Part shown: positions 25,366 to 56,248 of the stretch, piece after piece
How the letters are laid out: each line of letters opens with the position of its first letter
How positions within the stretch are numbered: position 1 is the first letter of the stretch
DNA from: Octopus sinensis
Lineage: Eukaryota
Direction: 5' to 3'
Assembly (NCBI RefSeq): GCF_006345805.1
Contig: NW_021834237.1
Coordinates: 6,150-70,149, forward strand
DNA length: 64,000 nucleotides
The notes under the pieces: model-generated
The model's input: only the letters and a program-made list of their open reading frames with translations
Databases searched by the model: none
Told to the model about the DNA's origin: nothing
Position numbers and translations under genes: made by a program

Positions 25366-25782
25366 AAGGCGGCGAGCTGGCAGAAACGTTAGCACGCCGG
25401 GCAAAATGCGTAGCCGTATTTCGTCTGTCGCTACGTTCTGAGTTCAAATTCCGCCGAGGTCGACTTTGCCTTTCATCCTTTCGGGGTCGATAAATTAAGT
25501 ACCAGTTATGCACTGGGGTCGATGTAATCGACTTAATCCGTTTGTCTGTCCTTGTTTGTCCCCTCTGTGTTTAGCCCCTTGTGGGTAGTAAAGAAATAGG
25601 TATTTCGTCTGCCGCTACGTTATGAGTTCAAATTCCGCCGAGGTTGACTTTGCCTTTCATCCTTTCGGGGTCGATAAATTAAGTACCAGTTACGCACTGG
25701 GGTCGATGTAATCGACTTAATCCGTTTGTCTGTCCTTGTTTGTCCCTTCTATGTTTAGCCCCTTGTGGGCAGTAAAGAAATA
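25366..25782 (+). mobile_element. SINE family C with tandem duplication of its 3' ~180 bp; 13-bp TSD tataattaaatct
   Basis: Full copy 25366-25599, then repeat from gtatttcgtctg to gtaaagaaata; one TSD brackets both units. Confidence 0.92.
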
Positions 25783-49029: not shown

Positions 49030-49390
49030 TATAACCTACTTGGAAGTGGATGCGTGGCGTTCGATCATATAATAACAAATTAATAAATAAAACATATGCA
49101 TACATACATACATATATGTATATACCTACATCTATATGTATATATATACATGCATATATGGGTACAGGACACCAAAAAAAAACGTAGAACACAACGAGAA
49201 ACGAAAACATAAAAACAAAATCATGGAAACGGACTTTTTCAAACAACGAAAAAACAGAGTACAAGACATACAACACAAGGAACATTCCCCTTCTTCAGCT
49301 GCCCCTGCTTCGACTACTCCGTGTTTCGAAGGTAAGGGCAAGACACGACTTCATTGAAATAATCCTTCCCGCTAAGCAAATTAAATAAAA
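49030..49390 (-). mobile_element. Permuted-hammerhead repeat family copy
   Basis: Homologous to 37435 and 55951; 3' end ccaagtaggtt next to a TA-rich tract. Confidence 0.8.
49287..49347 (-). ncRNA. Candidate non-circularly permuted hammerhead ribozyme
   Basis: cgtg-TC-ttgccctt-a-ccttc-GAAA-cacg-(13 nt)-aggggcag-CTGAAGA-a-gggg. Confidence 0.68.
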
Positions 49391-49737
49391 GGCAGGTAGG
49401 CAGGCAGGTAGGTAGGTAGGTAGGTAGGTAGGTAGGTAGGTAGGTAGGTAGGTAGGGAGGTAGGTAGGTAGGTAGGGAGGTAGGGAGGTAGGTAGGTAGG
49501 TAGGTATGGATGTATGTATGTACATATATATGTTGAAAATTTATGGCGAAAATATCAAGGCACGAAATGAAGTGAAAAGAAAGTGTAATTATTAGTTAAG
49601 CGCTAAATGAATGATCAGTGAAAAAAGAAATGGAAGCATTCTAGACGTTTCGAGCTAAGAATCTTTCGAAAGATAGATAGACGCGATATTATATATATAT
49701 ATATAATTATATATATATAATATATATATATATCTAT

Positions 49738-55950: not shown

Positions 55951-56245
55951 AAACTTACTTGGAGGAGATGAACGAAACGAATCGAATCGACGCGAGGGCG
56001 CTCCAGTCATACAATAGTGTAATAATAAAATTATGCATCATTCAGACATGACATATATGTACGTATAACTACATTAAATGTGATATACATGCATATATAA
56101 AATTATATACGTGGTCAGGTTACACCACAAAAAATAGGCCAAGTCAAAACAAACATGGAAAAAGGACCCCTTCATCAGCTGTCCCTAGTCAACTCCAGCG
56201 TGTTTCGAAGGTGAGGACAGAACACGACTCGTCGAAGTAGCCCTT
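55951..56245 (-). mobile_element. Permuted-hammerhead repeat family copy
   Basis: gcgccctcgcgtcgattcgattcg shared with 37690; abuts (TA)n. Confidence 0.8.
56167..56226 (-). ncRNA. Candidate non-circularly permuted hammerhead ribozyme
   Basis: cgtg-TT-ctgtcct-ca-ccttc-GAAA-cacg-(12 nt)-agggacag-CTGATGA-a-gggg. Confidence 0.68.
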
Positions 56246-56248
56246 GTT

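What the first reader, a model, noticed from the sequence alone, without database searches (positions are those of the whole stretch)
49287..49347. Repeat family with a non-circularly permuted (pseudoknotted) hammerhead ribozyme
Seen: on the minus strand all hammerhead core pieces are present, in the order [III-GUC-I], [II-GAAA-III], [I-CUGAAGA-II]. Sequence: cgugUC uugcccuu a ccuuc GAAA cacg (13 nt) aggggcag CUGAAGA a gggg. Stem III is a perfect 5 bp (cgugu/acacg) and stem I is 8 bp with two G-U pairs. Established: types I, II and III are circular permutations of these strands, and this order is none of them, so standard HHR descriptors would miss it. Inference: linker lengths suit the known 3D fold. 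The link between the neighbouring distal ends of stems I and II is 1-2 nt, and the link from stem III back to stem I is 12-13 nt. Weak point: stem II is only gggg/cuuc with two G-U pairs, and a competing GAAGG/CCUUC pairing would sequester G8/A9. I recall that natural non-circularly permuted hammerheads have been reported, so the novelty of this family needs checking.
Basis: partly seen in the sequence, partly recalled or inferred. Interest (0 to 1): 0.88.

Follow-up and report, generated by a model that had tools for sequence, protein, structure and literature searches.

The report
Split-core hammerhead ribozyme in jumping genes
Thousands of copies of a small mobile element in this genome carry all the pieces of a hammerhead self-cutting RNA in a rearranged order not found in the literature searched, predicted to be rejoined by a four-way junction, which would likely supply the missing self-cutting signal of several Naiad retroelements.

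Summary
The site lies in a 5'-truncated copy of a non-coding Penelope-like repeat (740-835 nt head-to-tail unit; 5,601 exact-core hits against 2 in the control). Stems I and III covary across subfamilies. The strand before GAAA pairs with a strand upstream of the cleavage block (Watson-Crick, five sequence versions). The G-run after CUGANGA pairs still further upstream, beside a hairpin. The A9-G10.1 link is thus predicted to be replaced by a four-way junction: a non-circular order opened inside block C, outside the six types of Eckert et al. 2023. Copy 5' ends pile up just 3' of the predicted cut, indirect evidence for cleavage in vivo. By eye, published 3' ends of octopus, coral, box-jelly and one arthropod Naiad show this layout, and eight nematode Naiads show textbook type CSG, although Naiads were reported to lack canonical hammerheads. 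Cleavage is untested. This copy lacks the 5' arms of helices IV and V. Mobilisation by Naiad is inferred. An unchecked scan note reports a permuted hammerhead in a Penelope-like tail in another genome.

The parts
49030..49390 (-). 5'-truncated copy of a non-coding Penelope-like repeat (subfamily A); 5' side abuts a (CCTA)n microsatellite, 3' side a (TA)n run
   Evidence: homology to other copies runs 49390 to about 49067, with tail to about 49028; sequence
49369..49375 (-). 3' strand of hairpin V; its 5' strand and the 5' strand of helix IV are missing in this copy
49364..49368 (-). GAAGG, proposed 5' strand of stem II (G10.1 = 49368)
49354..49361 (-). 5' strand of the helix in the position of the stem I-II interaction helix; two mismatches in this copy
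   Evidence: covaries in alignment A1 (helices 2-3)
49343..49347 (-). stem III 5' strand (U16.1 = 49343)
49342..49342 (-). C17; predicted scission 3' of this base
   Evidence: position 17 is C/U/A in 67 of 67 aligned copies, never G; 5'-end pile-up
49334..49341 (-). stem I strand following the cleavage site
49328..49332 (-). CCUUC, stem II 3' strand (C11.1 = 49328)
49320..49327 (-). GAAA core (G12-A15.1) and stem III 3' strand
49306..49313 (-). 3' strand of the I-II interaction-position helix
49299..49306 (-). stem I strand preceding the core
49292..49298 (-). CUGAAGA core (C3-A9)
   Evidence: N7 varies A/U/G
49287..49291 (-). AGGGG, 3' strand of helix IV (partner absent in this copy)
   Evidence: first pair U:A in 28 and G:C in 7 of 40 complete copies
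49030..49067 (-). optional 3' tail (about 40 nt), present in only some copies; in tandems it runs directly into the start of the next unit
55951..56246 (-). second, diverged copy (subfamily C) in the same window, GUU site at 56221, truncated at the stem II 5' strand

Best explanation
This is the 3'-terminal RNA module of a non-coding Penelope-like element, predicted to fold into a hammerhead ribozyme whose backbone is opened between A9 and G10.1 and predicted to be resealed there by a four-way junction, and it likely cuts the element's tandem transcript into unit-length RNAs for reverse transcription. Strand order 5'->3': IV-a, hairpin V, II-b, Y, III-a, NUH, I-a, II-a, GAAA, III-b, Y', I-b, CUGANGA, IV-b. 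Shown by comparison: stems I, III, V and Y, and II across families; IV by its first pair and between some families. Inferred: stem II stacks under the A9.G12 pair as in all hammerheads while IV stacks on V, since all three links at this junction are 0 nt; Y/Y' holds the far ends of stems I and II together, like the interaction helix of types SGC and CSG. Closing the chain through IV gives the cyclic order C-S-G, so it is a re-opened type CSG. Inferred life cycle: scission gives linear or circular monomers; an RT supplied in trans, probably by a Naiad, primes at (TA)n. It runs off at the cut 5' end (copies ending at the site) or continues round (partial and multiple tandems). The window copy itself is a truncated, probably crippled relic.
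For: Stems I, III and Y: 89.9% of cells paired, 16 of 24 pairs with both-side changes, 0/500 shuffles as high on percent paired and covariation score, slid controls 37-45% paired (67 sequences). Complete copies: IV 93.5%, V 91.0%, II 100%, III 95%, I 99% paired (40 sequences). RNAalifold, given no structure, returns IV, V and upstream II as a multiloop. Upstream stem II >=4 WC pairs in 18 of 71 diverged loci against 1-4 in shifted windows and a mean of 3.9 (max 13 in 2,000) with swapped partners. All 11 family clusters have upstream II >=4 WC, in five distinct sequence versions that pair only with their own partner. Zero-linker junction (V,IV>=4) in 43 of 104 copies against 10.9 (max 17) when the downstream strand is swapped, and in 6 of 11 clusters. 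Position 17 is never G in 67 copies although not selected. 5' ends among 94 downstream-anchored copies: 12 within -10..+1 of the site (0.0235 per copy-nt) against 0.0023 downstream and 0.0017 upstream, none in +2..+13; binomial p 8e-8 and 3e-7. Penelope-like anatomy: variable 5' truncation, optional tail and (TA)n flank, tandem spacings of 737-835 nt, tail leading to the next ribozyme in 24 of 30 loci. By eye, the same layout at the 3' end of published Naiad_Obim, Naiad_Ovul, three Acropora, one Morbakka-region and one ostracod/crab-region consensus, and type CSG in 8 of 8 nematode Naiads (supplement of PMC8557442). The Naiad_Obim motif has 477 hits in this genome against 0 in the control.
Against: No cleavage assay and no RNA-end data. 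Eckert et al. state that known alignments allow at most 1-2 inserted nt next to CUGAnGA, so activity of a split block C is unprecedented in what I read. Within subfamilies A-D stem II is invariant and was selected by the pattern, and IV is a C/G run whose register rests on its first pair (sliding by 1 gives 40 against 43). Among 34 old non-CCTTC copies only 5 keep a perfect junction, against 4.0 in the control. In one search the swap control for the S block (mean 7.8, max 16) nearly reaches the observed 15 of 71. 'Further pair types' is not above shuffles, and relatedness inflates shuffle tests. Single-sequence folding of an intact subfamily A copy favours stem I, V and a competing hairpin, not II or III (pseudoknots not modelled). 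The 5' ends lie mostly a few nt 3' of the site and the rate already rises over -45..-11 (0.0061), so RT stalling contributes. The window was fixed, and about 8 of the 12 ends are copies shared with that sample (my comparison of the two lists). No Naiad ORF was found linked to subfamilies A-D, and there is no sequence similarity to the Naiad_Obim tail beyond microsatellites.
Confidence: 0.7

Rival explanations
1. One reading: a plain type-SGC hammerhead in which the G-run after CUGANGA forms a weak stem II with CUUC; the upstream pairings are an off-state or incidental.
For: The 4 pairs can form in 95.6% of cells in subfamilies A-D. One-nt insertions after A9 occur in known Penelope hammerheads (File S2 rows), and very weak stem II is known (PMC3088659).
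Against: No compensatory change; at most 1 WC pair in all 11 clusters; never above 3 pairs in 71 diverged loci, while the upstream partner covaries.
Confidence: 0.1
2. The conserved six-helix fold is an RT-binding or packaging structure descended from a hammerhead but no longer cutting; 5' ends pile up because the RT stalls in the knot.
For: No assay; the end rate rises across the whole 3' half of the structure; several Naiads show no recognisable hammerhead in the passages seen.
Against: The rate falls about tenfold across the predicted site although the structure continues 80 nt further upstream. U16.1 and the not-G rule at 17 are kept across families that differ in every stem.
Confidence: 0.13
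3. Activity needs two units (dimer, or neighbouring tandem copies exchanging helix IV or stem II strands), as proposed for minimal Penelope hammerheads.
For: Tandem arrangement is common; dimer activity is proposed for PLE hammerheads (PMC4209133); subfamily B has a palindromic Y segment.
Against: Stem III is long (4-6 bp) and all helices can close within about 135 nt of one strand.
Confidence: 0.07

Closest known systems
Type-SGC and type-CSG non-circularly permuted hammerheads (Eckert et al. 2023, PMC10085705)
   Same: Same core, same non-circular cyclic order of S, G and C pieces, and a helix joining the far ends of stems I and II.
   Different: There block C (CUGAnGA plus both flanking stem strands) is assumed unbroken. 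Here the stem II strand lies 5' of the S block and two extra helices (IV, V) sit at the A9-G10.1 link. Theirs came from metatranscriptomes and metagenomes; none was in a genome of a known organism except one bacterial GCS candidate.
Type I hammerheads in pLTRs of Penelope-like elements and in non-LTR retrozymes (PMC4209133, PMC7229834, bioRxiv 10.64898/2026.07.22.740005)
   Same: Ribozyme near the 3' end of a head-to-tail, protein-free unit; proposed cut-circularise-reverse-transcribe cycle.
   Different: Those are type I (order C-G-S), often with minimal stem III, in units of about 170-400 nt. Here the order is non-circular, stem III is long and units are 740-835 nt.
Naiad Penelope-like elements (Craig et al. 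2021, PMC8557442)
   Same: 5' truncation, partial tandems, optional tail, (TA)n preference; the octopus Naiad tail has the same strand layout.
   Different: Reported to lack canonical hammerheads ('HHR_core', 'HHR_half_core' only). Subfamilies A-D encode no protein and share no detectable sequence with the Naiad_Obim tail.

Membership tests
Hammerhead ribozyme | Core C3-U-G-A-N-G-A9, G12-A-A-A15.1, U16.1-H17 | tested here: met
   (C and G blocks were selected by pattern; U16.1 and H17 were not)
Hammerhead ribozyme | Stems I and III flanking the site, covarying | tested here: met
Hammerhead ribozyme | Stem II starting with a 10.1:11.1 pair next to G12 | tested here: met
   with the upstream partner; the C before GAAA was required by the patterns
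Hammerhead ribozyme | A9 covalently followed by 10.1 (at most 1-2 nt inserted) | tested here: not met
   A9 is followed by helix IV; 10.1 follows hairpin V
Hammerhead ribozyme | Site-specific self-cleavage | not testable with these tools
   indirect only: 5'-end pile-up
Types I/II/III (circular permutations) | Cyclic order C-G-S | tested here: not met
   order is S-G-C; Rfam finds nothing
Type SGC (HRIMA-1 and variants) | Linear order S, G, C | tested here: met
Type SGC (HRIMA-1 and variants) | Stem II partner 3' of CUGAnGA (intact block C) | tested here: not met
Type SGC (HRIMA-1 and variants) | Helix joining distal stems I and II | tested here: met
   Y/Y' covaries; its 3D role is inferred
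Non-autonomous Penelope-like element / non-LTR retrozyme | Head-to-tail unit, no ORF, 5' truncation, ribozyme in each unit | tested here: met
Non-autonomous Penelope-like element / non-LTR retrozyme | Type I hammerhead | tested here: not met
   order differs
Non-autonomous Penelope-like element / non-LTR retrozyme | Expressed as linear and circular monomer RNA | tested here: inconclusive
   only contigs of guessed RNA runs were available
Naiad clade | ORF with N-terminal GIY-YIG and C-terminal RT upstream of the tail | tested here: not met
   none in subfamilies A-D loci; only isolated Naiad EN fragments in the genome
Naiad clade | (TA)n insertion preference, tail, partial tandems | tested here: met
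   these features are not unique to Naiads

The most novel reading that the evidence does not exclude
A seventh natural hammerhead topology (backbone opened inside the 'indivisible' C block, A9-G10.1 replaced by a perfect four-way junction) is active and is the hidden ribozyme of Naiad retroelements from cnidarians and probably ctenophores to cephalopods and an arthropod, while nematode Naiads use type CSG. Non-circularly permuted hammerheads are then abundant in animal genomes.
Probability: 0.6. Interest if true: 0.93.

Novelty: new variant of a known kind. Interest (0 to 1): 0.88.

Why it matters
If the fold cuts, it breaks the stated assumption behind the six-type classification of hammerhead permutations and moves non-circular forms from rare metatranscriptome RNAs to thousands of copies in an animal genome. 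It would also resolve the reported absence of canonical hammerheads in at least part of the Naiad clade and make the cut-and-circularise model of Penelope-like transposition testable with natural sequences. The 5'-end pile-up offers a genomic read-out of ribozyme cleavage.

Tried and rejected
Rfam scan of the window: no hit. Local direct-repeat and tandem finders were swamped by microsatellites. An outer helix between upstream GGAAGG and downstream UUUCC was considered and dropped once GAAGG proved to be the covarying stem II partner; it may be an alternative state. No RNA holder on record was listed; contigs of four guessed RNA runs cover 49160-49393 but cannot show ends or strand. Search for an autonomous partner: the Naiad EN motif gave 4 hits, and the two extended to about 6.5 kb were fragments without a linked ribozyme. 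EN-like pieces near L035, L140, L176, L203 and L330 belong to separate insertions with C-terminal endonuclease. A planned Pfam scan upstream of 14 diverged loci gave no result, so an RT link for those families is open. The metagenome scan gave 2 hits in coding-looking DNA without the flanking helices, treated as chance. PMC5785218 and PMC4509812 are not held; the second is cited for hammerhead variants with additional helices, so a precedent there is not excluded. Several arthropod Naiad tails with a CUGACGA motif could not be parsed by eye. My scripted overlap count between the two 5'-end samples was unreliable and is not used.

Full report
Observation. A descriptor for the order S-G-C with stem III >=4 and stem I >=5 finds 2 sites in the window against a mean of 0.007 in 150 resampled windows. 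The second site is a diverged copy at 56206. Rfam reports nothing.

The element. The genome is 2.72 Gb and probably an octopod's (inference from the Naiad_Obim motif). The window copy aligns to others from 49390 to about 49030. Relatives extend by variable amounts up to about 650 nt further 5'. 3' ends fall at a short or a tailed end next to (TA)n. Same-strand cores recur at 737, 805, 833 and 835 nt, three in a row at L072/L073/L090, and two copies lie 826 nt apart in L033. In 24 of 30 loci found with the tail junction, the next ribozyme follows about 380-480 nt later. The longest ATG-started frame in the L033 unit is 99 codons. These are the features Craig et al. list for Penelope-like insertions (PMC8557442, passages), here without a protein. 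Exact-core counts: 5,601 against 2 for the reversed control; a further 643 against 74 with other bases before CGAAAC; 3,367 against 1 for the upstream IV/V/II module.

Stems I and III. The 30 loci and 60 fetched regions were selected only on the G and C blocks. In alignment A1 (66 copies that keep the upstream context plus the window copy; 3 of 69 candidates were left out as misparsed or deleted), the proposed structure pairs 89.9% of cells, 16 of 24 pairs change on both sides, 0 of 500 shuffles reach the percentage or the covariation score, and slid controls give 37-45%. Position 17 is C 37, U 24, A 6, never G; U16.1 is kept in 66 of 67. Relatedness inflates shuffle tests, and 'further pair types' is not above the shuffles.

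The gggg/cuuc pairs show no compensatory change in 40 complete copies. In 71 diverged loci that register never exceeds 3 pairs, whereas a partner 31-47 nt upstream of GAAA gives >=4 Watson-Crick pairs in 18 of 71, against 1-4 in shifted windows and a mean of 3.9 (max 13) with swapped partners. RNAalifold on the 40 copies, given no structure, returns upstream II, hairpin V and helix IV.

The junction. Directly 5' of the stem II strand lies hairpin V, and directly 5' of V a run that pairs with the bases after A9 (helix IV). In 40 complete copies IV is 93.5% and V 91.0% paired; the first pair of IV is U:A in 28, G:C in 7 and unpaired in 5. A zero-linker junction with V and IV >=4 bp occurs in 43 of 104 copies that have upstream II, against 10.9 (max 17) with swapped downstream strands, and in 6 of 11 clusters, with a 10-bp IV in one. 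Against: sliding the G-run by one gives 40, and the 34 older non-CCTTC copies give 5 against 4.0. Inference: core arm, II, V and IV form a four-way junction in which II stays stacked under A9.G12. The Y/Y' helix links the strand after II-b to the strand before I-b, the same place as the I-II interaction helix in Eckert et al. (PMC10085705; parts 1 and 3-6 of 8 read, supplements not seen). Closing the chain through IV yields cyclic order C-S-G. Eckert et al. assumed block C cannot be interrupted.

Indirect evidence of cutting. In copies selected on the core, 22 of 94 begin between -9 and +1 of the site. To remove that selection I anchored 94 copies about 180-260 nt downstream (taken from the first 90 of 100 listed places out of 4,167). 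End rates per copy-nt: 0.0023 (-165..-46), 0.0061 (-45..-11), 0.0235 (-10..+1; 12 ends), 0 (+2..+13), 0.0017 (+2..+88); p 8e-8 and 3e-7. The window was fixed, about 8 of the 12 ends are shared with that sample, end positions are uncertain by a few nt, and RT stalling probably adds. The sharp fall across the site fits templates that begin there.

Link to Naiads. Craig et al. report no canonical hammerheads in Naiads but eight 'half-core' cases, including Naiad_Ovul. Reading passages of their File S5 by eye: the tails of Naiad_Obim and Naiad_Ovul, three Acropora Naiads, a record in the Morbakka part and one in the ostracod/crab part show S-G-C with a 6-bp upstream stem II, a hairpin before it, and a helix after A9 (weak, about 3 pairs, in the octopus pair). 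The first record of the file, probably the ctenophore one, shows a longer variant. All eight nematode Naiads show type CSG with 4-5 bp stem II, seven with a clear I-II helix. Names were assigned from neighbouring headers or file order. I saw search passages, not whole sequences; several arthropod tails could not be parsed and no such motif appeared for bivalves or hemichordates. The Naiad_Obim motif has 477 hits here and forms one of the 11 clusters, where the automatic IV/V parse failed. Subfamilies A-D share architecture, not sequence, with it, and no ORF was linked, so mobilisation by a Naiad is inference.

This copy. It starts at about 49390 inside hairpin V, lacks IV-a and V-a, and has two mismatches in Y. 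Nested folding favours a competing hairpin in subfamily A. It is probably impaired; assays should use complete copies.

Prior art. Seven full-text searches found no report of non-circular hammerheads in Penelope-like elements or of a split block C. A July 2026 preprint (part 1 of 5 and passages) still lists three folds and type I in PLEs. Passages were also seen from PMC4209133, PMC7229834, PMC3088659, PMC13725137, PMC10162972, PMC8370743, PMC6962438 and PMC13159263. Two relevant papers were not held, and most subscription journals are not searched. Scan notes from other genomes mention a permuted hammerhead in a Penelope-like tail and a twister-like motif in a clam-type Naiad; I did not test them. 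Hammerhead numbering and the stacking argument are from my own knowledge.

Verdict. New variant of a known kind; interest 0.88.

Noticed in passing
window 49871-49849 and 46043-46020, minus strand: Two copies of another repeat with a decayed type I-order hammerhead core (CYGANGA, 4-bp stem II, GAAAC), so canonical-order and split-order hammerhead families coexist in this window.
   Followed up: partly
window 25416-25782 and many dispersed sites: 184-nt tandem pair and dispersed copies of an abundant SINE-like repeat family.
   Followed up: no
L140:300-1270, L330:363-1070, L176:600-1350, L203:1500-1900: Fragments of Penelope-like elements with a C-terminal GIY-YIG-like domain; L140 and L330 end in a short type I-like hammerhead remnant.
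   Followed up: partly
L335:818-1394, L303, L304, L336: Broken Naiad endonuclease fragments; Naiad ORFs in this genome appear only as remnants.
   Followed up: partly
L010, L043, L136/L137, L190, L347, L382: Inverted, 5'-truncated partner copies next to the main copy, typical of Penelope-like insertions.
   Followed up: no
supplement File S5 of PMC8557442, parts 16-19: Spider and ostracod Naiad tails carry CCCC-CUGACGA motifs with flanking helices that fit neither layout by eye; possibly further ribozyme variants.
   Followed up: no
L032:7640-8716: Array of an 83-nt unit, about 13 copies.
   Followed up: no
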